Source of the DNA: Haliotis cracherodii
Taxonomy: Eukaryota
Direction of reading: 5' to 3'
Length of the DNA: 64,000 nucleotides
Assembly: GCF_022045235.1 (NCBI RefSeq)
Contig: NW_027266341.1
Span: 37,076,001 to 37,140,000, forward strand
Part shown: in pieces, positions 6,901 through 55,400 of the stretch
Layout: every line of letters begins with the position of its first letter
How positions within the stretch are numbered: position 1 is the stretch's first letter
Notes under the pieces: model-generated
Database searches by the model: none
Told to the model about the DNA's origin: nothing
Seen by the model: the letters and a program-made list of their open reading frames with translations, nothing else
Position numbers and translations under genes: made by a program

Positions 6901-9900
6901 TTTCTACAACGAGACTCTGCCTTGACATAACGGGTGACCTACTGACATTCCATTGAACACCATTTACAAATGGTTCCTGACTGAGATGAGTAAGCTGCTT
7001 GTACTCCATTGTCATACAACATGGGAATCCCACAGGCCAGTTGAAAGACGCAAGTAAGTAGTGCTGTGTGTCGAGGGTATATGTACTGGCTGATCCGAGC
7101 TTTATTTCCCACATCGTGGATTCTACTGCAACGATCTTCAGTTTATGTATTGACTGTATTTAAGATGGTTGGGTGTTGCGAATGTCAGTCACGATTATGA
7201 CTGTGAGATATTTAAGCTTACACACTGTTTCGGCTATAGTCAGTTTCTATCTGATGCAATATGCGTCTCAGCTATGTAGCTATGGTGGCTTTATCTGACT
7301 ACCGCAATAGGAAGTAAACACTTGATTTTGTTTTCTCATTCGGTAAACATTATGATTTTGTTTATAACTGTCGTTGTTTCTGTAATACGGTTATGTGAGG
7401 TTAATTATTTGTTCTCTTTGACAAAATCACATGTTATCTTACCTCGTGTAAGCTAGCTCACCTCACTATTATGCATGAGAAGTTCAACTAGGAAGTACTA
7501 CACTTACTTATCGCACCAGAGCTGCTATATATTCGAAAAACAATTCGATTTTCGTTTTCGTGCAATCAGCTTATCAAATGTTTATTACATATACAAATGC
7601 TCGTCACGAGTGAAGGTCTAGCAGCAAAGACATTTCGGCCCAAAATAAATTCAGTGCATTTAGTTTATAGGGCACAGTTTATAGTAATGGTTTCTAGTTT
7701 TCAACGATTTGTCTACTTGACCTAATTGTAAGGCAGTGTTCGGTGGATAAGCTAGACTGGTTACTCGTATATAGCGATGTGTGTGCATGTGTGTGTGACT
7801 ACTTGTACTTGTCCGGACTAAAGTCCGATTTTAGTGCTAGCTCACTGAGGCAGTTATACATGAATACCCCACTCAGACACAGTATACTGACTCCGAGCCG
7901 ATAAGTCCTTTGTTTACCCTTAGTGCCAAGTGCAAGGCAGGGTAACAACAAGTACCATCTTTCAATGTATTTTCGCGTGGCGCTCTAGATATACTTTGAC
8001 CTAATGTCAGAGTAATGATTACAGACAAGTCAAACATGCATTTTCTTTTCATAATCCTTTACATTTTCAAAGTATACAATAGTATACTCCACCTTGTCGT
8101 AACAACAAGTTTTAATAGCTATTTTAAAATCACTGCATCTAAATCGAAAAAGAACTACTTTCAAGCAAGTGTCTAGGGATGTCAGAACATTCTCTACATT
8201 CAGTTGTGTTTTATAGTGGTTCTTCACATTACCAACTTCTTCACAAAACAACTCATAGCCAAATCCATACTGGAAAAGCATATTTACATTTCAGTTGCCC
8301 ATGTTGTACACCAACTACCATTAAATATTAGTACAATGTGACGTTGGCGTGGTAATCTGTTATCTGGAAGCTGAATAACACTACACCAATATTTGATGTC
8401 ATGTAAATGAGTTGCAATGGGAACCTCTCACATTCACCCAGGACCATGCCATTAATTACGATGTTATCAGTGGTGTTCTGCCAATTCCTAAGAAAGATTC
8501 ACAAATGCTTTTCTGTACATATTCAATAAATTTACAATGAGGGGCTTCCATAGCAAAGAATTGACGTTAGCAATGAATTAGATATGTTAAAGTAGGCAGA
8601 TACACTGATTTTGCGTTGAAAACAATATGCGGACACAACTGCCGTTCTGGCTTGTGAAGTTAAACAAGTTTTAGCGCTGGTCCATACAAGTTTGGATATA
8701 AACACTAGTCTCAAGTAGAATGAGACAATTTAAATAGGTTCACCCTTACAACAACATTTCTCTCCAACAGTACATATGTACAGTCGTCCACATTACTGAA
8801 GTCCGTGCCAGCTGAACAAGGCGTAGATGAGGGACGTGATCTCACCTGCCACAGCAGTATTCATGGGAGGTTTCCCCGCTTTTGCTCCCGCAGCATATGG
8901 TGTCGTCAGGATAGGCGTCATCCTCAAAAGTGCAATTTATTCTTTTTTCACCGAGCCCGATACAAACCTTCGCATCATGTGCTGCAAAAGAATAAACATC
9001 ATTGACAGTTCATTTCTGGTAAACATCACCATGGTACAAAATACAGCTTTCCCTCAGTATACTATCGCGCTCCCTCGCAATACTACCGACGCTCCATGGG
9101 GATCAGACATGGACTCTTCCCAAAGTTTGTGGCCGTTACTTGCAAGTCCGCGATAAGTATTATTAACTAATATCAAATGTTCTCTGTTGTGATATTGTTG
9201 GTAATTCTTTTCTTTCTAATTAAGGATTGACTGTGTATTTTTTCGGTTCATTGAGGTATGAATCGAAATACCGATGTGCAAACTATTGTAAGAATCCGAT
9301 ACGCGGAATTAGTGAGTGAGTTGGGTTTAACGCCGCTTTTAACATTATTACAGTTATATTACGGCATGTAAGCTTAATGTGGGAGGAAAGCCCGAAGTGA
9401 TGCAGGTCTCAGACGTTTACCACTTCGGTGAAACCCACGAGCATGGGTATGGTGCTGGAAAACCTAGAAACATAATCGGGGCGGGATTCGGGACTCGACC
9501 CCACAATCATAGGTTTCTGGCGTGCCCAAGGGACGCAACTCTGCACAGCCAATCGCCGCGCCTTAGACCACTGGACCACCCGTGCTCCCTACGCGGAATC
9601 AGACAAATATGACGAGATTGATAAACATTCCAGGCGTAGGAGAAGAACTGCATCTATTACGAATCCGAACAAATACGCCAGGGAGAATTAAAGGAGGCTG
9701 TTTCAAATGAAATGGTCAGTAACCTCCAGATTCAAGCATTAGTTTCCTGAAAACTGGTAAACACAGTTTGAAAATTGCAAGTTAGAAATGAAATGCGAAG
9801 ACATGACATTGATTTGTAGAACTGAGATTGTGCAATGCCGGTGTTCATGTTCGTGTGGTGTATTCAGCTATTTAGAACACAGGGGTCACAATGAACACAA

Positions 9901-10726
9901 CGAAAATTAAATTACTTAGATATGTTTCTGTACTTGGTGCAGGAAGAATTCTTCACGAAGCATTTGGCAAAGCAGCACCAAAGCTATAAGAAATAGCCGC
10001 CCATCAAATAGTTCCTGGTGGCTTTCCACAGCATTGTGAATAAGAGCCAATAAACTGATACCAATGGCCTTTCCAACTTCAGTATGCATGTTCTGGTTGA
10101 AGCTTTGTCACTGAGCTACTGATGAAGCCCTCATAAAAGGCCAAAAACTATTGTTTCTAAAAAAATGATTGACCACAACCATATTACCACATTCATATAT
10201 AATAAATTGTTGTTGCAACACATTTGACCCATTGTTTTGCCTTATATAGAAGACATTACTAGTCTCAGATGATATTTAAAAGTACATAATAAGTTTCGCG
10301 ATAAAACACGTTATATCCCTCCGCCGTACGCATTATCTGCCTGTTTTCTGTTCCCGCAGTAACTATTTATAATACCAGTTCCTAAAGGATTGTAATCAAT
10401 CAATAACATTGATAGATACCAGTACCTGGCTGAATAGTTATAATAGCTACATGGAGTGACACAGTGTGTACACTGTATTTTAGGTTCATACCTGCAAAAA
10501 CACAGAATTTTTAAAGTTGATTCTTAATTAACAACTGCAGCCCCTGTGTGTTTACACGAACTGAGTTCTGACAGTGACGAAAGCACCACACAGAGGCTAG
10601 AATTTGTACTACGGTTACGTCCATTTCATTTCTGATTCTCTTTGACATATGACACAAACAAATAGGTATATACTCACAAACAACAGCCAGTGCAAGAATA
10701 ATACACACAGTCGTTCGGGACAGCAT
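3980..10726 (-). CDS. Shisa-like/CYYR1-like single-pass membrane protein, paralog E (divergent; ~160 aa; 5 coding exons)
   Basis: Exons 10726-10678 (49 nt, MLSRTTVCIILALAVV signal peptide, GTGAGT donor), 8981-8846 (HDAKVCIGLGEKRINCTFEDDAYPDDTICCGSKSGETSHEYCCG), 6518-6352 (NERIVRDVVMPTVVGLIALGCIIATIILMGYVIFWKPKGARGRVG..., TM), 4556-4494 (DPDTKPTIVVNDEADQTPPHK) and 4047-3980 (GTNMPTTANDELKVTPTEGTSP*). All junctions are GT-AG with matching phases 1,2,1,1. The 3' exons are less certain. Confidence 0.78.
4715..4855. repeat. Minisatellite, ~21-bp unit (TACCCCTTGGTGACCGGTGAG-like)
   Basis: About 6 tandem imperfect copies. Confidence 0.85.
5001..5390 (+). mobile_element. Non-autonomous element with an internal palindrome; second copy at ~39391-39648 (-)
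   Basis: Inverted arms AGAATCTCACCC..TTTTGATA / TATCAAAA..GGGTGAGATTCT (5001-5131). The ~200-bp body (CTCTTAAGTGTAAAAAGTACTGCTAACAGCTTCAGTAG...) is reverse-complemented near 39400-39580. Confidence 0.7.
5655..5950. repeat. Tandem repeat, 65-bp unit, ~4 copies
   Basis: CAACGTGGCCCACCTG recurs at 5659, 5724 and 5789, with a variant copy at ~5872. Confidence 0.9.
7765..7985 (-). mobile_element. SINE family 4, partial
   Basis: Reverse complement of the body seen at 56254-56604 (GTCCGGACTA..., CTCAGACACAGTATACTGACTCCGAGCCGA). Confidence 0.75.
9310..9589 (-). mobile_element. tRNA-derived SINE, family 2
   Basis: Reverse complement of the 2750-3035 element; TSD TACGCGGAAT at 9300-9309 and 9590-9599. 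Confidence 0.9.
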
Positions 10727-11199
10727 CCTGCCGAACTCAGAGTATCAGAACCTAATGCAGGTGTACCTAGTGTACCTTCGCCATGATATGTACATACAAC
10801 GACCAAAACATGTATAGCTGACATTCAATGGAAATAGTCCCACGCCAATCGCCATTATAGCGATCTTTTATGTTGATCTCTTAACGCCGCTCATGGTGCA
10901 ATGAACATTGAGTAGGACTACATGCATTCATGTATGTCTTTCAGTGTATAGATTATTTGTAACTCTTACAATACCATGAAATACCTTTACTAGGCGACGA
11001 TATATGTGCATGTATTCAGTGGTTAAGGCACACATACTCACATTCAAAGTGTGTGCCTTAGCTACCGTGAATATAAAATAGACTCGGAGTTGATAATGTC
11101 GTTCCAGCGTATTCGAGAGCGGTTAGTACCGGATGTACATTACATTGAACGTACGAATGGATTCAATGAATGTTCTGACACTACTTTCCTCGATAACAT

Positions 11200-11450
11200 A
11201 GGAGCGGAGGGGTAGCCTAGTAGTTATAGTGTCCGCTCGTCACGCCCGTGTTCTTCATGTTCAATGTTTGAAGCCCATTTATGGTTACCCGCCTTGAAAT
11301 TGCTGGACAAATTCAAAAAGCGGCGTGAGTGAGTGAGTGAGTATGGTTTTACGCCGCTTTTAGAAATATTCCAGCAATGTCACGGGGGGGGGGGGGGCTT
11401 CACACATTGTACCCATGTCGGGAATCGAACCCGGGTCTTCGTCGTGATGT
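11200..11450. mobile_element. Two family-1 SINEs tail-to-tail (+ then -)
   Basis: GGGGTAGCCTAGTAGTTA..GCTCGTCACGCC head on +, followed by (GTGA)n..TTTTACGCCGCTTTTAG..GGGAATCGAACCCGGG on -. Confidence 0.75.
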
Positions 11451-16045: not shown

Positions 16046-16056
16046 AATGATTTATT

Positions 16057-18186: not shown

Positions 18187-21100
18187 CTACCACTGTAGGC
18201 TTGAATACACGTGCTCGTCAGTGTCGTTTGTTCGCATGGCTTGGGTATGTTCAGAATTGTTACCCATTGTAGGAGCAACAGATGTAGCCGGAGGGGCTGC
18301 TCTACTCGGTGGGGGATAGGCGGCTTGTCCTGCCATTGGTGGATTTGCTTGTCTCGCCATTGGTTGATTTCCTTGTCTTGCAATTGGTGGATTTGCGGCT
18401 TGCCCTACCATTGGTGGATGGACGGCTTGTCCTGCCATTGGTGGATGGAAAGGTTGTCCTGCCATTGGAGAATAGGCTTGTACTGGTCCTGGTCCTATCT
18501 GAGGAGAGTAGGGTGGTGGAGGTTCCGCCATCCCAATAGGTGGAGGGTGAGGTGTTCCAGGAGGAGGCTGAACCGTGTGCACATATCCTGCATTATATGC
18601 AGCAGTGGGTGGGTTCCCGGCTGGATAGAACAAGCATTATGTTCGTATAGTATAAAGATGGGGGTTCTGAGGCTGTGTATTTAAGAGGACCAACGACTGT
18701 TAAGTTGTTTGTCATACATCTGACTTTAGGACTTTTCATATATAATGAGAACAAAATACAATGGACATTGATCTACAGTAATTACACTTTACAGAGTTAG
18801 TTGTCAAAGCATCATATGTGCCACAACTTTGAATCCCTTATTTGTGTTTGTTGTTTAATGCTGCTCGCCGCAATATTCCAATTATATGAGTATGTTTAGT
18901 ACCTGCAGATATGACGGTAAGTTGTTGGCTGGTGGTCACTACCTGACCCCGGTGACCTCGGGATGACCTACAGCAGCAGACACAGCACACGACTATTCCT
19001 GCAATCGCGGCGATCAAGACGCCGACACCAACCACGACCCCGATTATCAGTCCCGTCGTTGAAGGATTCCCGCCGTCAGAGCTGTTATTGAGGTTAGAGA
19101 GAACACAATGTTATGTAAAGAAGCGATCTGGTATACCTACATAGTGACTACTGATTTTACACATATTGACTTATGACTGATTTTCACACGTATCTTCGAC
19201 AAAGGTCATTCCAATCTATTTTCTGTTAATTCTATTCATTACTGTTAATCAACGCTAACATACACCCTATTTACATTTCGCACAATGCATCAAACTGTAT
19301 TTTACATCACTATGTGTGATAGAAATATATAAATTCTTCTCAATTTCTTCGGAAATTAACATTTATATTATGTAGAAACATTTATATATAATGCACCTCT
19401 GTGGGGCCAAATGGAATTGCAATAATATAACGTTACGTAAAAGTTAAACTAATATTATTACTGCCCTCGAATTGTTCATATTAACGACAATCAGCTTTAT
19501 CATATTTTTATTATTTTTTATTTTTTATTATATCATACTTTATTACTATCACTTAAATTAGCGGATAAAACCATGTTGCGAATTCCAAAAGAAAGCTGAA
19601 GGATAATGAAAACAAATATTTTTTTAACCATATGCATATATTTCAATAATTATAAAATTAGTTATAAAATATTTATCAATATTGTTAAAAATTCCAGAAA
19701 GATCACAGTCTAATGAATAATGATCACGATGTGTAAATATTGATAAGGCAGACTCTTACAGACGTGTATTTTTTTTAATACAACAATTAAAAAAATATTG
19801 TATATTCCTCAAACAAATGTTAACGTAATTATAAACTTTGTTACATCTCATACGTATACAGAATGTTATTTTCGAATGTTAATCAGAAGAAACGTACAAT
19901 ATCTTTGGCCCAGTTCAGATGTAACGATTGAAGCTGACAGACACATAAGTACACCTAGACGTTTGAGATTATGTTCCCATTGTTCCTTAAGTGAGTGACG
20001 AGTGAGTATGGTTCTACCCCGCTTTTAACAATATGCCAGCAATATCACAGGGTAGGACACCGGAAATGGGTTTCACACATTGTTCCCATGTGGGGAATCG
20101 GCGTGACGAGCGAACGCTTTAACCACTAGGCTACCCCACCGCCCCCATTGTTCTTTGAACGAGGTTGAAGATGAATAACCATTTTATAAGTATGTTGCAA
20201 ATAAAATCAATTTTCGAAAATATTATATTGAACGACAATATCATGTACATCCCAATGGAAATAAACACACTTTATGTCATGTTCCTAAGGCAAGATAATT
20301 CGTACCCTTTAAATGTTTAGAATATCATGCTGTGTCAGTTCGAAATCATCCCTGTAAACTCGACAAACGCTTCTGTATTCTTTAAATTATGCACCTTTGC
20401 ATCTACAGTATTACAGAAAAAAAACCTTATATCTACCATACCTTATGCTATCTTCATTTACATCACAAAGTATTAGGTCATACTACTAGCTGGTCGAAAA
20501 TGACAAACTTATCAACCAAATATTGGAATGGTGCACCAGGTTTTTATAAATTAGTCTTTTTTTAAAATGTGTAATGCCAAAAGTCATCTGGAAGCTGACT
20601 GTGATATTGTTATGATATTAAACAAACAAATGGTTGCATTTTGCTGTTCAGAAAATAATAAATTATTTGTTACTGTTTCCTCTTTTGAGTCTGTAACGAT
20701 TGGTCGCAATACACACACCGTGGATACTTGTGAAATCCTTATTAATATGATCAAGTCAGAAACTTTTGTTATTCTATTAGTCTACTTGTAACAGTTGACT
20801 ATATACAGTGAAAGCAAGAAAATAGAGTGATGCATATGTACATACTCACCAGCAATATCGGGAAGAGCTTATTCCACAGCATGAGTCAGTACATGTTAAT
20901 GTCCTGGTTTTAAAACTGCTGTACTCGTAACATATTTCATAGGCAGACACTGGAAAAAAACAGACCCAGGAAGTAGTTAGATAAACTGTAAAGATATGCA
21001 TGTGTAAGGGTGAATGTTATCCTGCCCTATTTTTTATCCCGGGAATGCAATTCTCTAGTGTCAGGATGATTCTCCCCAGTGAATATGAAGCTATACCAGT

Positions 21101-24245: not shown

Positions 24246-25791
24246 CAAAAGCGTGGCTATGTTAGTGCAGTAATCTAACCCGTGACTGGGAATACATACT
24301 TAACTCCATACTGCCGCTTATTTCATGTATCTGAACTTGTCGTTAACATAACCCACTCTCTTACCCAGAGTTCCTTGCGGCCAGCATAGTACCACTGCAA
24401 CAGGGCGGCGACATGTGACGATTCGTCAAATCTTACTCAGTCCATTCAAGATGGTGCACATGTTTTTCATCTGTTTCATTTTTGACGAGTCTACATATTT
24501 ACATAAACGTATGTCACAGAATGGATGACTTTCATTGAGAAAACTTCCTAAAACGTGAAAAACTAATCCATTTGCGTGTTTATATTTTTGCGCTGTCATC
24601 GAAGCCCTACGACGAGCTAGAGATACGGCCACTGTAAGGATTCATCCACGTCCTGCTACACAAGTCACTGTCGTAGTTGTAGCAGCGTATCCATATAATA
24701 ATGCAAAGGAATGTGAAGCGCACCGAAAGGCTTGCATTGGGCCCCTCTTTTCCGATTTCAGAATAAGCGCGTAAGCTTACAAACAAGAAAAAAGTCCGGT
24801 CACGTGATATGTAAATTAGCTTGTGGCAGTGGTGTTAATGCCAAGTCATTGCTGCCCCGGTTGTGTAACATTACTATTTCAAAGGCTGATACACTTCGCA
24901 TGTTCAAATTGCCAGGCGACTGGGGCGTGACGACGTGTACTTTACATCCTGTCTCACCTCGCCGACTCATACGCCATGAATACTGTACATTCCTGATAAC
25001 ATCTGACTGAACGCGTCGAGCCATAACTGCGACACAGAGAGATATGCGATGAATGAGTGAGTGAGTTTGATTTAACGCCGCTTTGGACAGTATTTCAGTT
25101 AAATTACAGCATGTCAACTTAACGTGGAGGAAGATGCCGAGTGATGTAGGGTTAATAGGTCTTGTGAAAGCACAAATATGGTACTGTTAAACCATTCCTG
25201 GGTTCTGGGATTCGAACAATGGCATGACAAAGGGACACAACTCTGACATCCGTGTCACCAGGTGAAGGAAGTGTCTCAACTCTTGAATTGCGAAGTCAAT
25301 ATTCATCTTTAATTAATGCCAAATACATTTATGGACTAGACACAGAAGCATTTAGAAGCCGTGGGGAACATGTAATTTATTTTCACATTAACGACGTTTA
25401 TCGTGTATCATATTAAGCTAATTTTCTTGCGTATCTTTTGAGATCGACCAGGCTGAAGTTATTGTCACAAATGAACCTGTGACGAGCTAAGATTCTTTAT
25501 CGGGTCATTTGCGGGTAACTAAATCTGACATAGATATTTGATGTTGATTCAGGTTTTTTGTCACCGTTCCCAAACTGATCACGAGGACACTATAACACGG
25601 AGCTGTTTAGATCATGTACGTTCACTGATAGTATCTAGGTCAGAGGTGATCTGTTCTAACGGCACAGTGTCATGTCACTCTGTGTAGATGTAGACGTTAC
25701 ACTTATAATGACCAGTGGTCTACAAATGATGTGAATACTTACCAATAGAAGCTACACAGAGAAGAGTCCACCCAGTTTTCAGAGAAATCAT
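18187..25791 (-). CDS. Shisa-like/CYYR1-like single-pass membrane protein, paralog A (253 aa; 4 coding exons)
   Basis: Exons 25791-25743 (49 nt, MISLKTGWTLLCVASI), 20949-20850 (SAYEICYEYSSFKTRTLTCTDSCCGISSSRYC/C), 19081-18903 (TM GLIIGVVVGVGVLIAAIAGIVV then CCVCCCRSSRGHRGQVV) and 18620-18187 (Pro-rich tail with PPPPY, ending DEHVYSSLQW*). GT-AG sites, phases 1-2-1, 762 nt uninterrupted. Confidence 0.9.
19990..20146 (-). mobile_element. tRNA-derived SINE, family 1
   Basis: Head GGGGCGGTGGGGTAGCCTAGTGGTTAAAGCGTTCGCTCGTCACGCC on -; TSD CCCATTGTTC. Confidence 0.88.
21261..21434. mobile_element. Tc1/mariner-pogo-type MITE
   Basis: TIRs CAGTAAACTACGG/TTTATAACGAAC...CGTAGTTTACTG flanked by a TA TSD. 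Confidence 0.85.
22830..22975 (-). mobile_element. SINE family 3, partial
   Basis: GTCTGGACCAGACAATCCAGTG..GATACGATGACATGC..GCATGGG matches the 46325-46587 copy. Confidence 0.7.
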
Positions 25792-28545: not shown

Positions 28546-30515
28546 TCAGCGCTCTAAAGCTGTATACATGTGCTCCTCTTCGGTGTGTTTTGGAGATGTT
28601 GCTGCGTTGGGTGGAGTCATGGCTGCTGCTGCTCCTGGAGGATTTCCCTGAGGGGGAACATACGCTGGTGCTGTTGTTGCAGCTGGTGTGTAGGCTGGAG
28701 GAAGGCCTGCCATCTCCGGTGGAGGGGGGTAGAATACTCCAGCAGGAGGTTGAGCTGGGTAACCGTAGTTTGGCGTGAAGGCAGCATTGGTAGTGTTAGC
28801 TGGAGGTGGTCAGAATATTTACATTTGACAAACATCTTGCACCTTTGCAACCTCCTTAATTTACACATGTCTTATTGTGTAATGAAAATAGGTTGGTATA
28901 CAGTGTAGCTAAACTCATTTAGGTCACAGTACACTCTCATCATATGTGGAGAGAAAACGCCATTTTGTACACACAACTTTGGCAATATAAAAATGAATAC
29001 TTAAAAATACATCGATATTGTTATTCATTAATTAAAGTAAAATTATTGCTTTAAACTTTATACTCCATTTTATAACGAAAGATCATAAAATATGTCAATA
29101 TTAGCATATACCTGACATTGTATATATAAATGATGTTTACACCAATAGCCCGAGTCGTTATTTACTACAATCTACTGATTTAATTTTTGAGTATTCAACA
29201 TGAATTACAAAACTGAGAAATTGAGTTTTAAAAATAAAGACAATAGTTTCAAGAATTTGACAGTTCTCTGTTCAATTAGTTGAGGAATTTCTGAGCATAA
29301 TGCATGACAGGACATGGGGTGAACCAAGGCAGTTGTATGAGAAAGTGATATGATGGCATTCACGGGATGTCTAGGGTTATGTAACTCACTGTTTAAGAAA
29401 GCAGACTACCAATAAATGTGCTCAATTGTGAAATAGTAAATCATTCTGAAATAGGTAGCTTTGGAAACCCTGTTTGAGAGTATTTTCTTCAGAAAAAGTA
29501 ATACAACATACTATGTATTCTGCCCTGATATAATTTAAATATAGATTTGCAGAAATACCTGTAGTTATGACAGCAAGTTGGTGGTTGGTGGTCACTACCT
29601 GACGCCGGTGACCTTGAGATGACCTACAGCAGCAGACACAGCACAAGACGATTCCAACAATCAGGGCGATCAAGGACCCGACACCACACACGATCCCGAT
29701 AATCAGACCTGTTGTTGTCCCGGAACTGTAAGATAAACTTAATATATAGAAGGGGGTCCGTTTGAAGGTAACGTTTCGATTCAACATATATTGCTCATTA
29801 TTTGAGTTTAATATTTATTGAAATGTAGATCCATTGATGCAGGTAGACGACTCGTCCATAAGCTGATAAATAACACATTTCAATAAAAACTATTATTCCG
29901 TTCTGCCAAAATAGGTCAACTGATTCATAAACACATGTTTATGGTATAGTCAGAATCGTACAATCGACTCGGCTTTATGCAGAGATTTCTATTGGATATG
30001 GAAACTTAAGTGTTTTGTCGCTGTATTTTCGCAAAAGGTATTAATGGTAATTTGTACATCATCAAGAAATTCTCTTTGATTAAAGCTGACATCAAATGAA
30101 CCAATCCCTAACATGTTCAGGACCTGACCAAAAGTTAGGTCGTACATCTACTTACCTTCCATAATAACTGCCACAGCAATATCTGTACGAGCTATCGCCA
30201 CAGCAGAGTGTGGAACAGTACTTGGTCCTGTACGTTCCAAAGGACGTTTTCTCATAGCACGTTTGGTAAGCAGATGCTAAAGGAACAGATATTCCAGTAT
30301 AAAGTATAAATATATCTTTGGCTAGTACTAATTTTGATAATAACGTGTAATACATTAACATGTAATCATATATTGTAATAAAATTGAACACAAAATGAAT
30401 TGAACAAATATATATTTTAGGGATTACAATTAGGGATCGCATGAGGTGATGCGAGACGAGGTGGAGTTTATTGTTGCGTTCAAGTTTATTTCACTTGCAT
30501 GTGTGTGTGTATGTG

Positions 30516-30551: not shown

Positions 30552-32044
30552 TGTGTGTGACTGCTTGTACTAGTACGGACTATGTCGGTATGACACTGCT
30601 ATTCCACTGAGATATCAGGACGCAGTTTAACCTGAACACCCCACTCAGACACAGTTTACTGACTCCGGGATGTTGCTTCCCTAAATCCCGAGTGCCAGAC
30701 AGGGTAGTAACGTATCTTTTAACGTCTTTGGGAATTACTATTGATTTTTCCTTAACAATATTTAATGTCTTCTTTCAGGACAACCGTTTATAGTTGGCTG
30801 ACTGAATATTAGGCCTGTAGCATTCTATTTTTATCAGGTTGTTAGTTTGAACCAATATCTACCAGCTTGCATGGAATCAGTAAAGTCTCGAGTAACATTT
30901 GTCTTATATCTTCTCTCCATGTTCTCCTTTAGAACAAACCCTCCTTGAATCCCTTCACTCCAACACCCTTCTCCGCCCTCTTCTCTCCCTATTCCGCCCA
31001 CTTCTCTCCCTACTCCGCCCACTTCTCTCCCCACTCCGCCCACTTCTCTCCCTACTCCGCCCACTTCTCTCCCTACTCCGGCCACTTCTCTCCCTACTCC
31101 GCCCACTTCTCTCTCTACTCCGCCCACTTCTCCCCCCTACTCCGCCCACTTCTCTCCCCACTCCGCCCACTTCTCTCCCCACTCCGCCCACTTCTCTTCC
31201 TACTCCGCCTACTTCTCTCCCTACTCCACCCACTTCTCTCCCTACTCCGCCCACTCCTCTCCCCACTCCGGCCACTTCTCTCCCCACTCCGCTCACACAC
31301 CATCCCCCTTCAACCGCCTGTGGAAATGATAGTTTAACCTATATAGCAACGCTTTACTATCGCCTTGTTTATGTGTGTATCAATTTACACCCCCAACCCC
31401 CACCCCCACCCTNNNNNNNNNNNNNNNNNNNNNNNNNNNNNNNNNNNNNNNNNNNNNNNNNNNNNNNNNNNNNNNNNNNNNNNNNNNNNNNNNNNNNNNN
31501 NNNNNNNNNNNNNNNNNNNNNNNNNNNNNNNNNNNNNNNNNNNNNNNNNNNNCAAAGTCAGTAACTGGTCAGTCGAAAAGTAACAATATATTTTACTGAA
31601 ACTTGCTTCTAACACTGAGAATCTATCTATAATCCCAGCAATTAACGCAAATCCCCATTGAAAAATTCTGACACGATCGCCGTTAGACCAGAATGGCGCC
31701 ATGTTTGTTTGTAAACATAGAAATTAGTACCAAACGGACCTTTTGTAATTGTATATTTATTCCTTAATTGACCCAAACGGCTACGCTTAAATCAGTTAGC
31801 TTTGTATTGCCGAGAAACCAACCCATGATATGAGAAAAAGTAGTTTCACGGAGGGGTACTATGTTACGTCGAGATCTAGGTCACCCATCTATGCAATCGA
31901 TGTTTACCTATACTTACCATGATATATCCATCACAATCACCATACGATATTCGAGTGTTATTGATCTACTGATCTAGATAGTACTATATACTTACAGATA
32001 GCGAGTAAAGGTAGAATAATCCACACAATCTTCAGGGAAGTCAT
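28546..32044 (-). CDS. Shisa-like/CYYR1-like single-pass membrane protein, paralog B (196 aa; 4 coding exons)
   Basis: Exons 32044-31996 (49 nt, MTSLKIVWIILPLLAI), 30276-30156 (SAYQTCYEKTSFGTYRTKYCSTLCCGDSSYRYCCGSYYG), 29725-29559 (TM then CCVCCCRSSQGHRRQVV) and 28799-28546 (tail with LPPAY, ending EEEHMYTALER*). Phases 1-2-1. Intron 1 spans the N gap. Confidence 0.88.
30443..30730 (-). mobile_element. SINE family 4 with internal (GCGT)n microsatellite
   Basis: Reverse complement of the 56254-56604 body. Confidence 0.75.
30970..31295. repeat. C-rich minisatellite, ~21-bp unit (CTACTCCGCCCACTTCTCTCC)
   Basis: About 15 tandem copies in intron 1 of paralog B, near the N gap. Confidence 0.92.
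31413..31552. other. Assembly gap (140 N)
   Basis: Run of N. Confidence 1.
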
Positions 32045-35304: not shown

Positions 35305-35550
35305 GTGAGTGAGTAAGTGAGTTGGGTTTAACGCCGCTTTTAACATTATTCCAGTTATATGTCAGCTTAATGTCGGAGGAAAGCCCGAAGTGATGCAGGT
35401 CTCAGACGTTTACCACTTCGGTGAAACCCACGATCACGGGTATGGTGCTGACAAACCTAGAAACATAATCGAGGCGAACCGGGATTCGATCCCACAATCA
35501 TAGGTTTCTGGCGAATCGCGGCGCCTTAGACGACTTGGTCACCCGTGCCC
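35305..35550 (-). mobile_element. tRNA-derived SINE, family 2
   Basis: Full length on -; TSD GGATA(C/T)TGCATGG. Confidence 0.88.
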
Positions 35551-38669: not shown

Positions 38670-41600
38670 TCATATATCCGTAACTGTGGCAGATGATGTT
38701 GGTGCAGTAGGCGAGGAAGGGACTGAATGTGTAGATGAACGAGACTGGCGAGGAAGAGAAGGAAGACGTTGCATCTCTACGGGTGGGAGGTAGTACGGAT
38801 CTGGTGGCGGCTCAGCTGGGTAGTCTTTGTCTGAATAGGGTGCATCGGCTGAAACTGAAGATATGTCAGTATTAACACTAAAATAAGAGTCCTAATATGT
38901 CAATAAAGACAATGTAATAGAAACACGGTTTCTACAGCTACTAGTATATGGTGTTTTATTTATTGTACAGAAAATGGTACTTTTGAGATAAATACCTAAA
39001 TCGTAGTCCATTCAAACAAATAATGTGAGGGAGTTGGGTTTTTTTAACAGTATTCCAGTTTTATCACAGCGTGTCAGCTTAATGTGTGAGGAAAGCCCAA
39101 AGTGATGCAGATCTCAGACGTTTACCACTTCGGTGAAACTCACGAGCACGGGTATGGTGCTGACAAACCTAGATACATAATCGGGTCGAATCGGGATTCG
39201 AACCCACAATCATAGGTTTCTGGCCAAACAAATAAAGCTCGAGTTTGTTTTAAACATTTTATATTGACATTAAAAGGGCAAATGGTAGCGGCATAAGTTG
39301 CCCAACATACAACACCATTTCTATGAACAGACTTACAGACAGTGGACAATAATGTAAATATTTTAGCATATAGATAAAGTGCATTTATCATCCAAAACTG
39401 GCTTCCACAGGTAAGATCAAGCGATATCTACATTAAAGATAACGCTGCAATGAAATTGCATCACAATGCTTTGTAGACCATTGTGACGTCACTGGTTAAC
39501 ATGACGTCACAATCAAATGACACCATTTATGGCTACTGCTACTGAAGCTGTTAGCAGTACTTTTTACACTTAAGAGGGATGTTGGTTGAAAAATGTATTC
39601 CTCATCCTCGTCTCTTATCAAAAGACACAAGGGTGAGATTCTCTAAATAAATGCGATACTTCCATGGAAACAATCACATTAATAATATATAAAATCACAT
39701 ATACTATTGCTGTGATGAAGGAACCGTGTACTCCACTATGACGTAATGTATATAAAGGTACATTTGCCAAATTATATCGAATACTTTACTCATGTCTCAA
39801 AATACAACTCTTTTGTCTCATCTTGGAAATTATATAATTGGGCGACTTGATACACAGTAAGATCACCAGCTGCAAATCCTGATTGCAAAGATGTAAGAAA
39901 AAACTGACACGCATTTCTTATACACTTTCAACAAACTGGCAAGAGGGACAGCTCTATAATTAGAACTATCATTAATTTTATACTTATGTACATTTCCATA
40001 TATCAGGAAAATGTGAAGTTAATAATGAGGAATTTAAGAAATTACATAGAGGACAAAATAATAGTTCTGCTAAATACTTTAGGACAAGATTACTAATAGT
40101 ATCAGTCCACGATGTTGCTTTGGAAATAAAATGTCTCTAACTTCAGATTTTTTAGACTCAAATCAAATCTTTTGGTTGACAAATTGTATTAATGTTTGCA
40201 CACAATTTTAAATATCAAGACGGTATGTGTTAATGAGCAAGACATATTACCAAAAGGATTTGTATTGAAAATGGCCTCCAACTGATAAAATATTGTTTTA
40301 TAATGAAGTTCTTATGACATTATAATAGGGACATTCGAGCAAAAAAAGTGATAGACGTTTTCACATAGATTTCCACACAGGCATATTAGGTTTTCTGACA
40401 AATTGATTTTAAATAAATCTGCATTGTGGGAACTAAAGGCATGTAACATTCGGGTATAAATGATATTTGCTGCCCCGGCCCCAGATACGAGTGAGTGTGG
40501 TTTTACGCCACTTTTAGCTATATTCCAGCAATATCACGGCGGGGGACACCACAAATGGGCTTCACACATTGTACCCATGTCGGGAATCGAGCCCGAGTCT
40601 TCGGTGTGACGAGCGAACGCTTTTACCACTAGGCCCCGTCTAGTGATCCTCTGACCAATTATGAGAGTTTGTCATTATAGTGTATACTAGTAAGCTTCTA
40701 TGCCAATCCCTATCAAAAGCTTTTGAGACATCACAGAATATCATACAATTCCTGCTTGTTAACAGATAAATCTATGTCAGTATTAATTCCAAGTACGTGT
40801 GTGATAGCAGGGTGTCCTGTAAACAAATCCGGATTGGATTGAATTGCAACAGCTGATTTCTATAAAATGGTTGTGAAAATGTTTCAAAACAAGTCTGTCC
40901 AATAACTTCCCTGGCATAAGCTTACGAGTCTATAATTCAAGAAAGGAATTTGTGTTCTTATTCAATGGACCCGTGAAGATTCCGGGGTAGAATAGGTCTT
41001 CAGCAACCCATGCTTGCTGTAAAAGGTGACTATGCTTGTCGTAAAAGGCGACTAACGGGATCGGGTGGTCAGGCTCGCTGACTTGGTTGATGCATGTCAT
41101 CGACCCTAATTGCGTCGATCGATGCTCATGATATTGATCACTGGATTGTCTGGTTCAGACTCGATTATTTACAGACCGCCGTCATATAGCTGGAATATTG
41201 CTGAGTGTGGCGTTAAACAACAAACCAAACCAAACCAAACCAAATCTTATTCAGTGTCATAACGTGGGGTTATTTGCTCTCAAATGAAAACGTGTGAAGA
41301 TTTATTGAAGATAATGCAAAATGGTATTGCAACTGTATCTGCTAATGGATCTTATATGATTAAAGTAATCCAGACCCCTGGATTAATTACAAGATAAAGA
41401 CTTGACAAGGTCACGACTTTCTAGCTCTTGTATGGTGATATCAGTGAGGAAGCACGAACAAGGTTGTTCACGGGGAGGTATAGGGTGAGTATTAGCTTCA
41501 ACAGTACCCGGAGACACACAATAACCATAGAGAACTTCAGTATTGTCCGTATCTTTAAACACTGAAGATTTATCTGAGCTAGCTTTAGTGGAGCGCGTGG

Positions 41601-44298
41601 GGATACATGTCGTTCTTCAATCTTTCATAATGTATCAAATAGTCTCAAATAAGTAGTATTTTGTTACTTGCGTGACTAGGAACCTCTTCATGTTTGAATA
41701 AAACTTTCTTTGGCAACCTTTTTCATATCATAAACTTATTTCTTTGGGTTTCCTTTATAATTCGACGTTGACGTTGGCGGTTTATGTGGTATGTGATCAA
41801 GTAACAAGGCGCGTCAAATACTACAGATATATAATCAGTGATATCTTTTAATTACTGTAACAATGCATGTCGGTTTAAATTAGTGCTGTCATAATGATTG
41901 CAGGTTTGGATAAATACTTTCCCCATTGGTGATTCCGGGTCAGAATAGATACTAAGTGTACCACGCTTGTCGAAAGAGCTGACTAAAGACCATCGGCTGG
42001 TAAGGCTCGGCGACCTGGTTAACTAGCGTGTCATCATAACCCAACCGCTTTGGACGACAATCATATGGGCAGCCATCCGGATGTCTGGTCAAAACTCCAT
42101 TATATAAAGGCCGCTGTCATGTAGCTGGAATAGTGCTGCTAGGGGCTTTGAAAACGAACCTCGCTAAATATAATATATACCTGTTGATTTAACATCTTCT
42201 TGGCTGTTTGTGGATACTGGTTGACCCTGTCTTCGTGATTTACGACGACGGTAGAGGCAATATAATATGACACCCACCACCACAGCAATCAGAACTAAAA
42301 TCCCCACCACGAGTCCAACAATAAGTCCAGTATTTGCTGTGCTGAAATGTAAACCAAGACGTTGTCAATGACATGTTTGCAGCTATTATTTCACAGGTAC
42401 ACTTCATTGTACTTCCTATTCCGTTTCAATGTCAGTCTTTAAGCTCCAACATATGAATTGTTATATAATTACCAGACAATTTCTGAAAGGATGCTCGAGT
42501 TATGTTGTACTGTCATCAAGGATACAATGCTCGATAGGGTAAACAATCCAAAGTGAGTGAGTATGGTTTTACGCCGCTTACCAAAAATGGGTTCACACTT
42601 TATATGTGGGGAATCGAACGCGAGCCTGCGGCGTGGCGATCACACGCTTTAACCACTCGGTCTTCCCGCCTACCCACAAGCCGGAGAACCGAGTTCGATT
42701 CCTATCTTGGATACAATATGTGAAGCCGGTTGCTTGTGTCATCCCGCCGTAATATGGATGAACTATTGTAAAAGGCGGTGTAACCTCTACTGCCAAACAC
42801 ACTCATCAAGATGTTTCAGATCTCGAGACTTCGAGACTTACATATTTACTTGTGTTTGACTTCAGAAACACACAATGTCTCAACCCACATTTAACTGTTA
42901 TTTGTGATATCCTGATTTATCTATTTCTGTCACAGAGTCCAATAGTATCAATTGTATTGAATCTCCAATTTGTGATGATAAATACTAGTACCCTGTACAC
43001 ATTCGCTACCACAGCCTCGATATAAGCTCATTTCGAGTGTGACGAGTCTAAAACGTCCAGTTAAATTACTCTCACGAGCGAGGGGGATTCTGTACCACTA
43101 ATGAGATAGGAGAGTTTGAGATCGTCACGTCACTTCCGAAACATACTAATGGTGATAGATTTATTATAAAAAAATGTCATAATAAAATGGAGATATAAAA
43201 GAAAGCTGTTACATAGGTCTCTGACTTTCTGGTATGAATATACCTGTAAGCGTTGTCATTGACGGTCTGTGTATAACGATGACGATACAGTGATAATTTC
43301 ATAATATTTGTTAATTATTGCAATATGGATGTGTAACAACGAGTCCGCACTCAAAGAAATGTCTTTCTGACACACTCTTCAATAACGAATGTCCGATCCA
43401 TTTGTCTTTTGGCAGTCACCTACGTGTACATGTATAATATCCTACACAGTGTGATCAAACATAACAGGTCCTGTGACATAATGATATGACATGACATAAT
43501 GAATGAGTTGTAGTTTATGACGCTTTGAGTGGTATTTCCGTGGTATCACGGCGCGCCAGCTTGGTGTTAATGGAAGGTCCTAGACGATTACCATTTCGTA
43601 GAATCTCATGAGCATAAGTATGGTGCTGACAATCCAGAATTGGTCTTAACTAGGCGAGCCTTATTCAAACCAACGAACATGAACCACATGATCATGACAC
43701 GTCTAAGGGACGCAACTCTGCACAGACTAGGTCACCGGTTAGTGTCGCCTGACACACCGAGCTGAGCATGATACGCATAATTTTAGAACGGTGCTTCACC
43801 AATGAAATACCACAAAAACACAAATGTGTACCCACCCTGGCTCGCTGCAGCAGTATGTAGATGACAAACCACAACAGTTGAATTCACAGTATTTCTTTCT
43901 GTAAGTCCCATCAGAATTTTTCACGTAACACACTTCTTGCGCTTTGGCTTTGGCTTTGGAGGAAACGAATCTGATGATTAATAGCATGCTTTAATTTTTA
44001 ATATTGAAAAATCAACAGAAAATGTGACAGAGAACAGTAGCATACCCTCACTGCTTGTGAGGTTAAGTAAATGATTATCATAAAGTAATATAGACTTACT
44101 ATTTCAAGCAACGAAAACAGGTTACACAATCACTCCCGTAAACACTGAAGCAATGAACGTTTACGCATGAATGATTCGTGTTATCAAGATCAAAATCAAC
44201 AGTCGTGTCCTGATCGGACACATTAACGTGAACATATAGATGTACTCACAGATAGCGAATATAGGAACAATAATACATCCACCCTTCAATGAAGTCAT
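38670..44298 (-). CDS. Shisa-like/CYYR1-like single-pass membrane protein, paralog C (~170 aa; 4 coding exons)
   Basis: Exons 44298-44250 (49 nt, MTSLKGGCIIVPIFAI; an in-frame upstream ATG at 44316 is possible), ~43953-43836 (KAKAQEVCYVKNSDGTYRKKYCEFNCCGLSSTYCCSEP), 42341-42181 (TM GLIVGLVVGILVLIAVVVGVILY then CLYRRRKSRR) and 38854-38670 (SADAPYSDKDYPAEPPPDPYYLPP...ATVTDI*). Phases 1-2-1. Confidence 0.85.
39025..39225 (-). mobile_element. SINE family 2, 5'-truncated
   Basis: Matches the family-2 body (GGGATTCGAACCCACAATCATAGGTTTCTGG). Confidence 0.82.
40490..40635 (-). mobile_element. SINE family 1
   Basis: TTTTACGCC..TATTCCAGCAATATCACGGCGGGGGACACC..GGGAATCGA.CCCG. Confidence 0.82.
40968..41243 (+). 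mobile_element. SINE family 3 (full length)
   Basis: GACCCGTGAAGA..GGGGTAGAATAGGTCTTCAGCAACCCATGCTTG... with an (AAACC)n tail; TSD TCTTATTCA. Confidence 0.88.
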
Positions 44299-52467: not shown

Positions 52468-55400
52468 ATGTACTTTCTGAAACGTGGATGGATACTTCTC
52501 ACTCTGACTGCTTTTTGTGAGTATATACATGCTATATGAGTTTTTGGCCATCGGGGAGAACTTACTGCGTTGGAAAACCACTAATATCACTGACACCACC
52601 CAACCATCCCACCATCCAACCACCCCACCACCTCAAAACCCAACCACACCACACATGCCCTATATATTGATGCATTTTGAAATACATTACTGAAACCTTA
52701 ATGTTGAAACAACGTGTCCTGGGATTTTTTCGGGTAATATTGTAGTTTTACAAGCTTCTATGGTTGTAGTAAGTGTACGTGTACCCCAAACGCGGCTCAT
52801 ACACGATAAGGTAGTGTGAGTGATCAGTTGGGTTTAACGCCGCTTGTGGCGTTGTTTCTGTTATAGCACGACGTTTCAGCGTGATGTGGGAGGAACGCCC
52901 GAAGTGATGCGGGTTTTAGACGTTTCACAATTTGGTACAACCCACGAATACGACTATGTTGCGAACAAACCTGGAAACATGATTGGGAATTCGAACTCAC
53001 AATCTGTGTTTCCCCCAACAACTAAGGGACACAACTCTGTACAGTTAATTCCGGCGCCATATGCGACTGGGTCACCCGTGCCCCCATTTAGAGTCTTGAT
53101 GTGTGTTTACGAGCGTAATGACACCGATGGTCTTGTTTTAAAACTGTTTTAGTGTCACGATGAATTATATTTCAAGCGATGATAGAAATCCTTGGTTAAT
53201 GTACACTACATGATATCTGCACGTAGGGCATTTAGACACTGTTAAGTATGTCTGCTGACATGTATTTACGTTCACTGCGCATCTCGAATGTCGTGTGTTA
53301 GGCTATCGACAAAATGTACGTCGCAGGGGAGAATAATGGAATATAAGTCAAATCGTCCAACAAATAAATTGAACTGATTTATTTTACAACAGGTCACGTA
53401 TTCTGTACGGCAAACGTGAATGGGAGTAGCGCCGATACGTGCTTACACTATGACGTCACTGCGACATATATAAATCTCGTTTCGTAACGTCATGGCACTG
53501 TATGACACCACCAATGCAACGTCGCTGCACGTAAGAAATTGTAGGAAATACGTAACTATGCACGTTTGTATCCATTTGCTACAAAATAAGCACACTAACA
53601 TAAAGAAAAATGTTTTTTATAGCTGAACATTTGATCCATAACATATTTGAAAAAATAGTGGAGTTAATTTAAACATATGCTATTAATTATACTTTGATGT
53701 TAAACTGAAAAGCCGGTGAGTGGTTTCCCTACGAGTCTCTATAGGAAAGTTTGAGTGTGGCAGCAGTAGTTACACTTTGCGCCGAGCACAACAAATGAGT
53801 CGCCTTCATATTTCAATTGGAAACTTAGATTAAATCGCCGTGATTTGAAAACTTCTCCTCTCAGAAACAATTAACTACTCTGAATTCAGACAAGCGGACA
53901 TTCGTGATAATGATAACGTGAACCCATAACAGGAACATATTCACACATGCACGCATTTTTCGAAATAATTGTCATTTAAATTGAGTCACATTCCCTGACG
54001 TGGGATGTATACACGGAGATGAATTGCGCAATTGATTTTCGCTCACTTTAACAGCGGAAACTCCGATATGAAACGTCAATGAAATATCTAAATTCATATT
54101 TAAACGAGTGCATTGTACATGTATTGTACATTATTTATGGTACCAAATATAAGCATTTGCTTTAACCGGATGCTGTTATAGCTTATGATCCAACGTATGA
54201 CAATAGCATACTCTGTCAATGACCTGTGTCACTTGGTGCTATCACACCCTGATATAACTGAAATACTGTTTGAAGCGGCATGGCACAATATAGAGTGTCT
54301 ACCCTGTTTGACCAACACTGTTCAACATTCGACCACCTTCTTGCCTTAGTGGATAGAGTGTCTACCCGGTGAGAAGAAGGTCGGAGGTTCGATCCCCAGC
54401 CGCGTCAGACGCAAAGACGTTAAAAGATGGTACTTGTTGTTACCCTTCCTGGCGCTCTACATTAAGGGACTAAAACATGGACTGATTGGCTTGGATTCAG
54501 TATACTGTGTCCGGGCGGGGTATTCGTGTTAAACTCCGACATTGTATCTCAGTGTGCTAGCACTATGAAATCGGCATTAGTCCGGACTAGTACAAGCAGC
54601 CACACACACATACACATGCTTGCACGTCGCTTATATAAGTGCAATAATCTTGAATGCGACGTTAAACCCCATGTCACCTCTTCTGTTCTACATTGCTTTA
54701 ACAAAATGTGCGAGGTTTCTTAATTCAGAAGGATTATCAGTACTTGATCATTCATCAAGTTCGATTACTTTTGATTTATTTTGTCTACGAAGATTATCAA
54801 AATATGGACACGGTACTATAAAAACGGTATTTATCGGTAACGGTAAATCATTCTTATTAAAATGATTACAAGTTCTGTCTTCGGGTCAATTTTTTCCCAT
54901 CACCCCTTCTCTATTGCTTATGTGTGGTTAGTGGAGTTTTTCTCAATGATACGAATACTAAGAGATGGCAAATAACATTTTAATTTTCTTTTATGTCAAA
55001 TAATCTATCAAATAAAACCTGTCGAAAAGTATTTACTGAACCTGTCCATCTGACATACGTCGACAGAATATAAGTTTTGACATTCAATTTTTCAGCCTAT
55101 GCCTTTGACGTGTGTACCGAGTATGGGGATTTTCATACCAAGACACTGACGTGTCGCGATTTATGCTGTGGGTCACGTTCTTTCAAATATTGTTGGTAAG
55201 TATAAAAAAAAATACTGGCGAAAGGCTTTGACAATGTCCGTGTGCGGGGAGGCAATATATCGCAATAAAAGGCGACTTAATTGGATCGGATGGTCAGACT
55301 CAGTGATGATAATGACTCTGATAATCGAGACTGAATATCCTCTGGCGTTATATTCATCATACTATCAATCACTGGTTTGTCTGGCCCAGCTTTGGTATAG

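What the first reader, a model, noticed from the sequence alone, without database searches (positions are those of the whole stretch)
8846..55195. Fixed cysteine scaffold with hypervariable ectodomain loops
Seen: the Cys spacing is conserved (C-x12/13-C-x3-CC-x6/7-CC in A, B, C, D), but the loops differ strongly: YEYSSFKTRTLT, YEKTSFGTYRTKY, YVKNSDGTYRKKY, TEYGDFHTKTLT. Meanwhile the TM exons of A and B remain very similar. Inference: diversifying selection on a ~35-aa disulfide-knotted binding module encoded by a single exon, as seen in recognition-receptor families.
Basis: partly seen in the sequence, partly recalled or inferred. Interest (0 to 1): 0.7.

Follow-up and report, generated by a model that had tools for sequence, protein, structure and literature searches.

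The report
Abalone Shisa-like adaptor gene array

Summary
The cysteine scaffold is real (4 matches, 0 in 100 shuffles). It is exon 2 of four-exon type-I membrane genes. Gene A is spliced as modelled, and the genes are STMC6/Shisa-like (Pfam Shisa_N and CYYR1). The window lies in a cluster of about 14 genes; a second cluster 11.5 Mb away has 12 exon-2 copies, 7 damaged.

The selection claim is only weakly supported. Across 15 paralogs, exon-2 dN/dS is 0.38, below exons 3 and 4 (0.51, 0.47-0.49). Site tests are negative although simulated power is 69-94%. Three contig sets show no exon-2 allele differences in gene A. In favour: between species exon 2 changes about twice as fast as exon 3 (24/240 vs 16/322 residues), and gene A's 8 replacements exceed the intron rate.

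The A-B transmembrane likeness includes synonymous sites, and paralog K3 switches parent inside that exon, so recombination likely homogenises it. Best reading: fixed cysteines, near-neutral loops, birth-and-death array. This scan noted similar arrays in mussels (unchecked).

The parts
25743..25791 (-). Gene A exon 1 (coding part): 16-codon signal-peptide-like start, phase 1
   Evidence: joint 20949/25743 in 3 of 4 RNA-type runs
20850..20949 (-). Gene A exon 2: six-Cys ectodomain (last Cys codon split by the intron)
   Evidence: weak Shisa_N hit E 0.1; 8 replacement and 2 silent changes in organism B
18903..19081 (-). Gene A exon 3: stalk, TM helix, Cys-rich juxtamembrane stretch
   Evidence: CYYR1 E 4.5e-5, below cut-off
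18187..18620 (-). Gene A exon 4: Pro-rich tail with one PPxY and a C-terminal YxxL
31996..32044 (-). Gene B exon 1 (signal-peptide-like)
30156..30276 (-). Gene B exon 2: six-Cys ectodomain
   Evidence: Shisa_N E 0.0026, below cut-off; four-strand model, pLDDT 71.7
29559..29725 (-). Gene B exon 3: TM exon, 84.6% identical to that of A, silent sites included
28546..28799 (-). Gene B exon 4: Pro-rich tail with PPxY and a C-terminal YxxL
44250..44298 (-). Gene C exon 1
43836..43953 (-). Gene C exon 2: six-Cys ectodomain (5' acceptor is one of several nearby AG sites)
42181..42341 (-). Gene C exon 3: TM exon
38670..38854 (-). Gene C exon 4: Pro/Ser-rich tail, no canonical PPxY
52468..52516 (+). Gene D exon 1 (inverted duplicate of neighbour Z)
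55096..55195 (+). Gene D exon 2: six-Cys ectodomain (last Cys codon split)
   Evidence: whole model identical to P0005
55426..55586 (+). Gene D exon 3: TM exon, long branch in the exon-3 tree
56724..56950 (+). Gene D exon 4: Pro-rich tail with PPxY
10678..10726 (-). Gene E exon 1
   Evidence: model identical to P0020
8846..8981 (-). Gene E exon 2: divergent six-Cys ectodomain (x9/x12/x11)
6352..6518 (-). Gene E exon 3: TM exon without the juxtamembrane Cys run
3980..4556 (-). Gene E exons 4-5 (4494-4556, 3980-4047): tail without PPxY
63640..63920 (-). Last exon of gene F (three PY motifs); exons 1-3 lie just beyond the window

Best explanation
Genes A-F are tandem copies of a Shisa-like (STMC6, CYYR1-type) single-pass membrane gene in an abalone, and they likely work as adaptors whose six-cysteine outer domain would contact partner membrane proteins while PPxY tails would recruit NEDD4-type ubiquitin ligases for endosomal sorting. 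Shown: the gene structures, splicing of gene A, family features, two arrays with damaged copies, and a chimeric paralog. Inferred for the sequence pattern: the cysteines and a few other residues (about 40% of exon-2 codons, dN/dS about 0.13) are held by purifying selection, while the loop codons (about 60%) change at about the neutral rate in partly redundant duplicates. Recombination between paralogs likely uses the TM exon as its homology patch, keeping TM exons alike and joining ectodomains to different tails. The adaptor function is inferred from human relatives and is untested here.
For: Family: Shisa_N matches 11 of 15 exon-2 peptides at E<=1 (best 1.2e-4) and passes the cut-off for F and two cluster-2 copies in the genome search. 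CYYR1 passes the cut-off in 2 of 10 full proteins. The nearest Atlas clusters are molluscan CYYR1, shisa-4-like and WBP1-like (0.92-0.94). The only chain at Z>=2 among 48,161 is the mouse Shisa3 N-terminal domain (Z 2.7, rmsd 4.0, 39 aligned; weak). Selection: M1a puts 41% of exon-2 codons at 0.13 and 59% at 1; M2a/M8 add nothing (p 0.72/0.67 own tree, 0.30/0.36 joint tree). The same holds with organism B and C rows and in four subsets (p 0.60-1.0 for M2a). Recombination: K3 matches K4/K6/K8 at 81 of 81 informative sites upstream and K2/K7 at 75 of 83 downstream, with the switch inside the TM exon. A-B pS is 0.23 in exon 3 vs 0.52 elsewhere. Turnover: 7 of 12 exon-2 copies in cluster 2 are damaged. 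Mechanism in relatives: CYYR1 binds WWP1/WWP2/ITCH through PPxY at late endosomes (PMC11399591, passages).
Against: Between species exon 2 is faster than a neutral-loop model comfortably allows. Six unambiguous pairs give 24/240 residues vs 50/859 in the other exons (p=0.028); against a roughly 1.2-fold expected ratio (my estimate from the M1a class means) p=0.085. Gene A has 8 replacements on 73 sites vs an intron rate of 3.5-4.8% (p 0.004-0.024, one gene, chosen after looking). The young pairs K4-K8 and K6-K8 also exceed their introns (0.08 and 0.12 vs 0.04-0.05). Only 8 of 17 complete models carry PPxY/LPxY; C, E and all six cluster-2 models lack it, so the NEDD4 step cannot hold for all copies. 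A-B flanking introns no longer align, so that conversion is inferred, not traced. No partner protein or tissue is known.
Confidence: 0.62

Rival explanations
1. Episodic positive selection: the same Shisa-like adaptors, but the loops of some copies (A, D, K4/K6/K8) were driven by bursts of selection from a changing ligand or pathogen. Repeated hits and recombination then blur the signal in old paralog comparisons.
For: Exon 2 is faster than exon 3 in 7 of 7 ortholog pairs (sign test p=0.016). Gene A has 8 replacement vs 2 silent changes (dN/dS about 1.3) and 10% vs 3.5% intron divergence (p=0.017). D differs at 6 of 34 exon-2 residues from its ortholog. Positions 43-46 of the CC-CC loop change again and again in A, D and Z. 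Exon-2 dN/dS in young sets is 0.99 (cluster 2) and 0.82 (A/D/Z plus orthologs), with best-fit upper classes of 1.5-1.6.
Against: None of the site tests on exon 2 is significant. The silent rate in gene A's exon 2 is also high (2/23), and replacement vs silent within the exon gives p=1.0. Gene A's tail shows 8 replacement of 10 listed changes, so the whole gene is weakly constrained. Older pairs fall below their introns (K1-K3 0.09 vs 0.20; D-Z 0.14 vs 0.15).
Confidence: 0.28
2. One reading: a hypervariable, highly polymorphic recognition-receptor family under pervasive diversifying or balancing selection on exon 2.
For: Tandem arrays, a small exposed domain on its own exon, length variation of loop 1 (9-24 residues), damaged copies, and tyrosine motifs at some C-termini.
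Against: Simulated pervasive selection on this tree was detected in 40/58 (dN/dS 2 at 30% of sites), 87/94 (3 at 20%) and 82/87 (5 at 15%) replicates, whereas the real statistic is 0.65-2.4 against a threshold of 5.99. In the A/D/Z/B/F set exon 2 has the lowest dN/dS (0.31 vs 0.78 and 0.43; p=0.021). No exon-2 differences from the window in X5, X6 or X12; three organism-B runs each show 10 differences. Cluster-1 genes keep one-to-one orthologs across species.
Confidence: 0.06
3. The array is mostly decaying surplus with no function of its own.
For: dN/dS of 0.4-1.0 in all exons; 7 of 12 damaged exon-2 copies in cluster 2; loss of PY motifs in 9 of 17 models.
Against: Six cysteines are kept in 16 of 17 complete models despite saturated silent sites. 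Gene A is spliced in runs of three organisms. Orthologs stay open in four labelled Haliotis species.
Confidence: 0.04

Closest known systems
STMC6 / Shisa-like group (Shisa, WBP1, WBP1L, VOPP1, TMEM92, CYYR1), as described second-hand in PMC5578492, PMC6125347 and PMC5037681 (passages); the defining paper, Pei and Grishin 2012, was not held
   Same: Signal peptide, C*C*CC*CC right after it, one TM helix, Pro-rich tail, PY motifs in many copies.
   Different: More than 20 copies in two tandem arrays on one contig. PY motifs are missing in 9 of 17 models. The aromatic juxtamembrane motif described for Shisa-like proteins is not seen in A-E. Recombination breakpoints fall in the TM exon.
CYYR1 (Pfam PF10873)
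   Same: Small size, six-Cys ectodomain, Cys run at the inner end of the TM helix, PPxY tail. The Pfam cut-off is passed by P0004 and P0009, and NCBI labels several relatives CYYR1-like.
   Different: Human CYYR1 has three PPxY motifs (PMC11399591); here 0-3. Window genes score below the cut-off. Orthology to CYYR1 was not tested with a tree.
SHISA4/SHISA5 (Scotin); Shisa_N PF13908
   Same: Weak Shisa_N matches; only fold match is mouse Shisa3 N-terminal domain. YP/PPP-rich cluster-2 tails resemble the ALG-2 type-1-like motifs listed for Scotin and annexins (PMC5037681, passages).
   Different: The domain here is shorter (28-29 residues from C1 to C6 in A-D); vertebrate Shisa proteins carry more cysteines (recalled). 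ALG-2 binding is untested.
Polymorphic invertebrate recognition receptors (e.g. Hydractinia Alr, Biomphalaria polymorphic transmembrane clusters; recalled, not from a call)
   Same: Clustered single-pass genes with a variable ectodomain.
   Different: No shared domain. No allelic hypervariability in gene A and no significant dN/dS>1 class.

Membership tests
STMC6 / Shisa-like group | Six cysteines in C*C*CC*CC order right after a signal sequence (PMC5578492) | tested here: met
   16 of 17 complete models have six ectodomain Cys in this order; K6 has four. A hydrophobic 14-16 codon first exon precedes it; no signal-peptide predictor was run.
STMC6 / Shisa-like group | Single TM helix after the Cys domain | tested here: met
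   Best 19-residue hydropathy window 2.25-3.35, in exon 3, in 17 of 17 models.
STMC6 / Shisa-like group | Pro-rich C-terminal tail | tested here: met
   Tail proline 12-23% in 17 of 17 models.
STMC6 / Shisa-like group | PY motifs (frequent, not universal) | tested here: met
   8 of 17 models, including A, B, D and F; absent from C, E, J3 and six cluster-2 models.
STMC6 / Shisa-like group | Profile or fold similarity to known members | tested here: met
   Shisa_N 11 of 15 at E<=1, over cut-off for 3 array copies in the genome search; CYYR1 over cut-off in 2 of 10; Atlas features 0.92-0.94; Shisa3 domain Z 2.7 (weak).
STMC6 / Shisa-like group | Binds WW-domain E3 ligases and regulates partner membrane proteins | not testable with these tools
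   Shown for human CYYR1 (PMC11399591); no data for these proteins.
CYYR1 orthologs | PF10873 over the curated cut-off and grouping with CYYR1 in a tree | tested here: inconclusive
   2 of 10 over cut-off; D (P0005) 22 bits vs 31. No tree with vertebrate members was built.
Shisa-like subfamily in the narrow sense | Aromatic W-Y/W-F/I-W motif next to the TM helix (PMC6125347, PMC5578492) | tested here: not met
   Not present in A-E by inspection of the models and alignment.
Cystine-knot miniproteins | Knotted I-IV, II-V, III-VI disulfide topology (recalled) | tested here: inconclusive
   Model with four strands, pLDDT 71.7, pTM 0.36; disulfide pairs not reported. No knottin was listed in either fold search.
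Hypervariable recognition receptors | dN/dS>1 site class in the ectodomain | tested here: not met
   M2a vs M1a and M8 vs M8a not significant in 7 of 7 exon-2 runs; power 69-94% for pervasive selection on the 15-paralog tree.
Hypervariable recognition receptors | High allelic polymorphism in the ectodomain | tested here: inconclusive
   0 differences in 100 nt in 3 of 3 organism-A contig sets, gene A only. Contigs drop alleles, and the flanking introns were nearly invariant too.

The most novel reading that the evidence does not exclude
Abalone has turned a Shisa-like trafficking adaptor into a recombining receptor repertoire: crossovers in the shared TM exon swap six-cysteine sensing modules among different tails (PPxY, YP-repeat or terminal YxxL), and bursts of selection reshape the loop between the two CC pairs to track changing ligands or pathogens.
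Probability: 0.15. Interest if true: 0.6.

Novelty: new member of a known kind. Interest (0 to 1): 0.27.

Why it matters
It is a worked case of how tandem duplication plus recombination in a conserved exon can mimic the 'variable ectodomain, constant membrane part' signature of immune receptors. It also maps an expansion of Shisa-like adaptors in abalone that seven literature searches did not find described. If the between-species excess in exon 2 proves to be selection, the array would be a small, testable candidate for a host-pathogen or gamete-surface interface in a farmed and threatened mollusc genus. The ligand of any STMC6 cysteine domain outside vertebrate Shisa is, to my recall, unknown.

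Tried and rejected
Foldseek against PDB: 0 of 48 listed rows at E<=0.001. Sequence search of PDB with alignment A4: best E 0.074, generic TM matches, Shisa3 at E 0.8. The Atlas structure search gave TM<0.5 in all 10 rows. The look-up of sequencing runs listed no holder on record as RNA; the RNA-type runs were used only for splice joints and differences. One search cut its difference table (428 rows not shown), so silent/replacement counts for exon 3 of gene A are unknown and those for exon 4 rest on 10 listed rows.

A mosaic origin of D's exon 3 was considered and dropped: D still groups with Z (support 98) on a long branch. Exon 3 gave M8 vs M8a p=0.018 and 0.014, driven by two poorly aligned stalk columns at the alignment edge; M2a gave p=0.09. 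I do not count this as selection.

Rows left out of the codon models: E and K6 (15 of 17 complete models used; K6 added), J2, J4, J6 (incomplete) and all damaged copies. Exon 4 was cut to its first 36 or 40 aligned codons. K8 was left out of the six-pair count because its ortholog is uncertain (with it: 32/278 vs 20/383, p=0.003). The intron yardstick comes from coded organism B, which is not shown to be the species that labels the database orthologs, so absolute dN/dS for those pairs is not claimed.

Pei and Grishin 2012 was not held. Literature searches found no paper on abalone Shisa-like arrays (listings only). No supplements were read. Complex prediction and the search of protein representatives were not used: no partner candidate.
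Full report
What is there. The four quoted loops are in the window at the places given. Each is exon 2 of a small gene. Reading the flanks and scanning for first exons gave five complete models with GT-AG borders and the same phases (1, 2, 1): A, B, C and E on the minus strand and D on the plus strand. The last exon of a sixth gene, F, lies at the window's end. Each protein has a hydrophobic 16-codon start, a six-cysteine domain, one TM helix and a Pro-rich tail; A, B and D also have a cysteine run at the helix's inner end, C has one Cys there and E none. Models D, E, Z, K8 and K9 are identical to database proteins, and F matches one except for 9 extra N-terminal residues in the record. These records are labelled Haliotis cracherodii and probably come from the same genome, so they support the splice calls only. 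One contig of run X12 follows all four exons of A with no difference in exons 1-3, and the exon 2/3 joint appears in 4 of 4 RNA-type runs from three coded organisms. The motif is not chance: 4 in the window, 0 in 100 shuffles.

The array. The window is G000:C78:37,076,001-37,140,000. In 264 kb around it there are 12 intact six-Cys exons and 14 TM exons between 36.99 and 37.16 Mb. A second cluster at 48.69-48.85 Mb has 12 exon-2 copies and 10 TM exons. Seven of those 12 are damaged: three frameshifts, two stops, one internal deletion and one loss of the last cysteine. Further Shisa_N matches lie elsewhere in the genome. Relatives are labelled H. rufescens, H. rubra and H. asinina.

Family. Pfam Shisa_N matches 11 of 15 exon-2 peptides at E<=1 and passes its cut-off for F and two cluster-2 copies in the genome search. 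CYYR1 passes its cut-off in 2 of 10 full proteins. The nearest Atlas clusters are molluscan CYYR1-, shisa-4- and WBP1-like proteins. The AlphaFold model of B's ectodomain is a four-strand domain of middling confidence (pLDDT 71.7). Its only match at Z>=2 among 48,161 chains is the mouse Shisa3 N-terminal domain (Z 2.7, rmsd 4.0, 39 aligned), weak alone but concordant. The C*C*CC*CC pattern after a signal sequence, with a TM helix and PY motifs, is the published mark of the Shisa-like/STMC6 group (PMC5578492, passages; PMC6125347, passages). Human CYYR1 recruits WWP1, WWP2 and ITCH through PPxY at late endosomes (PMC11399591, abstract and passages). Shisa-domain transcripts are over-represented in mussel gills (PMC5549309, passages). 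The defining paper was not held; my recall, unchecked, is that it reports large expansions in amphioxus and acorn worm.

Is exon 2 more variable than the TM exon? Only A-B shows a clear contrast (20/32 vs 39/55 identical). A-D and B-C are more alike in exon 2 than in exon 3, and the other three pairs are about equal. The loops fall into two pairs, A/D 7 of 12 and B/C 9 of 13 identical. For A-B the silent sites carry the contrast: pS is 0.23 in exon 3 against 0.65, 0.50 and 0.40 in exons 2, 4 and 1 (p=0.0013), and exon-2 dN/dS (0.29) is the lowest of the four. Selection on protein does not conserve silent sites, so recombination is the likelier cause. The younger cluster shows it directly: K3 follows K4/K6/K8 at 81 of 81 informative sites up to the start of the TM exon and K2/K7 at 75 of 83 after it. 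For A-B the introns no longer align, so the event is old and inferred. A contig of organism C that differs from A's exon 3 at 23 of 161 letters, about the A-B distance, suggests that the likeness predates the species split (that this contig is B's ortholog is my inference).

Codon tests among paralogs. I wrote a codon-model fit (F3x4; branch lengths from M0, then scaled). With 15 of the 17 complete models, dN/dS is 0.38 for exon 2 (34 codons), 0.51 for exon 3 and 0.47-0.49 for the start of exon 4; the difference is not significant (p=0.32). Exon 2 fits two classes, 41% at 0.13 and 59% at 1. Adding a class above 1 gives p=0.72 (M2a) and 0.67 (M8) on the exon tree, and 0.30 and 0.36 on the joint tree. 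Simulations on the same tree detected pervasive selection in 40/58, 87/94 and 82/87 replicates; they assume no recombination and a correct alignment. In A/D/Z/B/F exon 2 is the most constrained exon (0.31 vs 0.78 and 0.43, p=0.021); in cluster 2 it is the least (0.99 vs 0.77 and 0.59, p=0.52).

Against H. rufescens-labelled orthologs, exon 2 differs more than exon 3 in 7 of 7 pairs (sign test p=0.016). For six unambiguous pairs the counts are 24/240 residues in exon 2, 16/322 in exon 3 (p=0.030) and 28/441 in exon 4 (p=0.097). For gene A, organism B differs at 10 of 100 exon-2 bases against 11 of 311 intron bases (p=0.017): 8 replacement and 2 silent, dN/dS about 1.3. Organism C shares 8 of the 10. 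The replacements exceed the intron rate (p 0.004-0.024), but the silent rate is also high, and the tail of A shows 8 replacements among 10 listed changes. Residues 43-46 change repeatedly in A, D and Z. A neutral-loop model predicts about a 1.2-fold excess over the other exons (my estimate from the M1a class means); the observed excess is 1.7-fold (27/576 vs 52/1903 sites, p=0.085). This is a hint, not a result.

Polymorphism. Two DNA contig sets and one RNA contig set of organism A have no difference in gene A's exon 2. Three organism-B runs each show 10 differences, with positions seen for one. Contigs drop alleles and the flanking introns were almost invariant too, so this argues against deep allelic lineages in gene A only.

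How it likely works. Shown: structure, splicing of A, family features, turnover, recombination in the TM exon of K3. Inferred from relatives: the Cys domain faces the lumen or outside and contacts a partner membrane protein; the inner Cys run is palmitoylated (recalled); PPxY (8 of 17 models) recruits NEDD4-type ligases for endosomal sorting. Cluster-2 tails lack PPxY but have YP/PPP repeats like ALG-2 type-1-like motifs (PMC5037681, passages). Inferred for the evolution: the cysteines are fixed by the fold, the loops drift near neutrality in redundant copies, and TM-exon crossovers homogenise the middle and shuffle the ends.

Novelty. These are new members of a known group. Seven searches found no paper on the abalone arrays (listings only). 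Two unchecked notes of this scan describe CYYR1-like arrays in mussel genomes; they were read after my reading was formed and are not support. Interest 0.27.

Noticed in passing
L009:8420-9080 (G000:C78 about 48.74 Mb): Paralog K3 is a chimera with its switch inside the TM exon (81/81 sites K4-type upstream, 75/83 K2-type downstream); its intron 2 is 11 kb long. Real crossover or assembly join not checked in reads.
   Followed up: partly
G000:C78:48.69-48.85 Mb (L006-L020, L036): Second cluster: 7 of 12 exon-2 copies are damaged, while TM and tail exons next to K2, K6 and K7 look open. A block of about 5 kb with exon 1 and a frameshifted exon 2 is duplicated at 48.821 and 48.826 Mb.
   Followed up: partly
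window:18187-18210, 28546-28570; L002 (gene G): A, B and G end in acidic-His-x-Tyr-x-x-Leu/Ile, a possible sorting or phosphotyrosine motif; F ends in a similar His-x-Tyr stretch.
   Followed up: no
window:55170-55195 and L003:5087-5110: D and Z both have Phe at residue 46 where both H. rufescens-labelled orthologs have Ser: possible within-species conversion between D and Z in exon 2.
   Followed up: no
window:3980 and 56950: E and D stop earlier than relatives. E's H. rufescens-labelled ortholog reads 19 residues further, and the DNA after D's stop resembles the end of A.
   Followed up: partly
P0002: A database isoform labelled 'rhodopsin-like' is a cluster-2 protein lacking most of the TM helix, a possible soluble splice form; the label is wrong by these data.
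   Followed up: no
L002:5689-5780 (gene G exon 3): The juxtamembrane CCG unit is expanded to ten cysteines here, nine residues longer than in the ortholog P0008.
   Followed up: no
window:14728-16047, 26705-28054, 47150-48800, 30950-31300, 62260-63460: Tandem repeats (GT-rich array, 63-bp unit, about 30-bp unit, GGAGT-rich unit) and a roughly 600-bp direct duplication.
   Followed up: no
window:2746-3021, 9311-9589, 34157-34435, 35305-35556, 39025-39224, 59187-59410; 11198-11447, 19988-20147, 55930-56101: Two or more dispersed SINE-like repeat families, very abundant in RNA-type contigs.
   Followed up: no
G000:C78:12433521-12433670 and 31510709-31510819; C10:28.27-28.32 Mb; C56:21.40-21.42 Mb: Other Shisa_N matches outside the two arrays, the first much stronger (38 bits); possibly the conserved single-copy relatives and further small arrays.
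   Followed up: no
L005:6351-6473 (G000:C78:36992351-36992473): A partial second copy of exon 2 lies just upstream of J1's exon 2.
   Followed up: no
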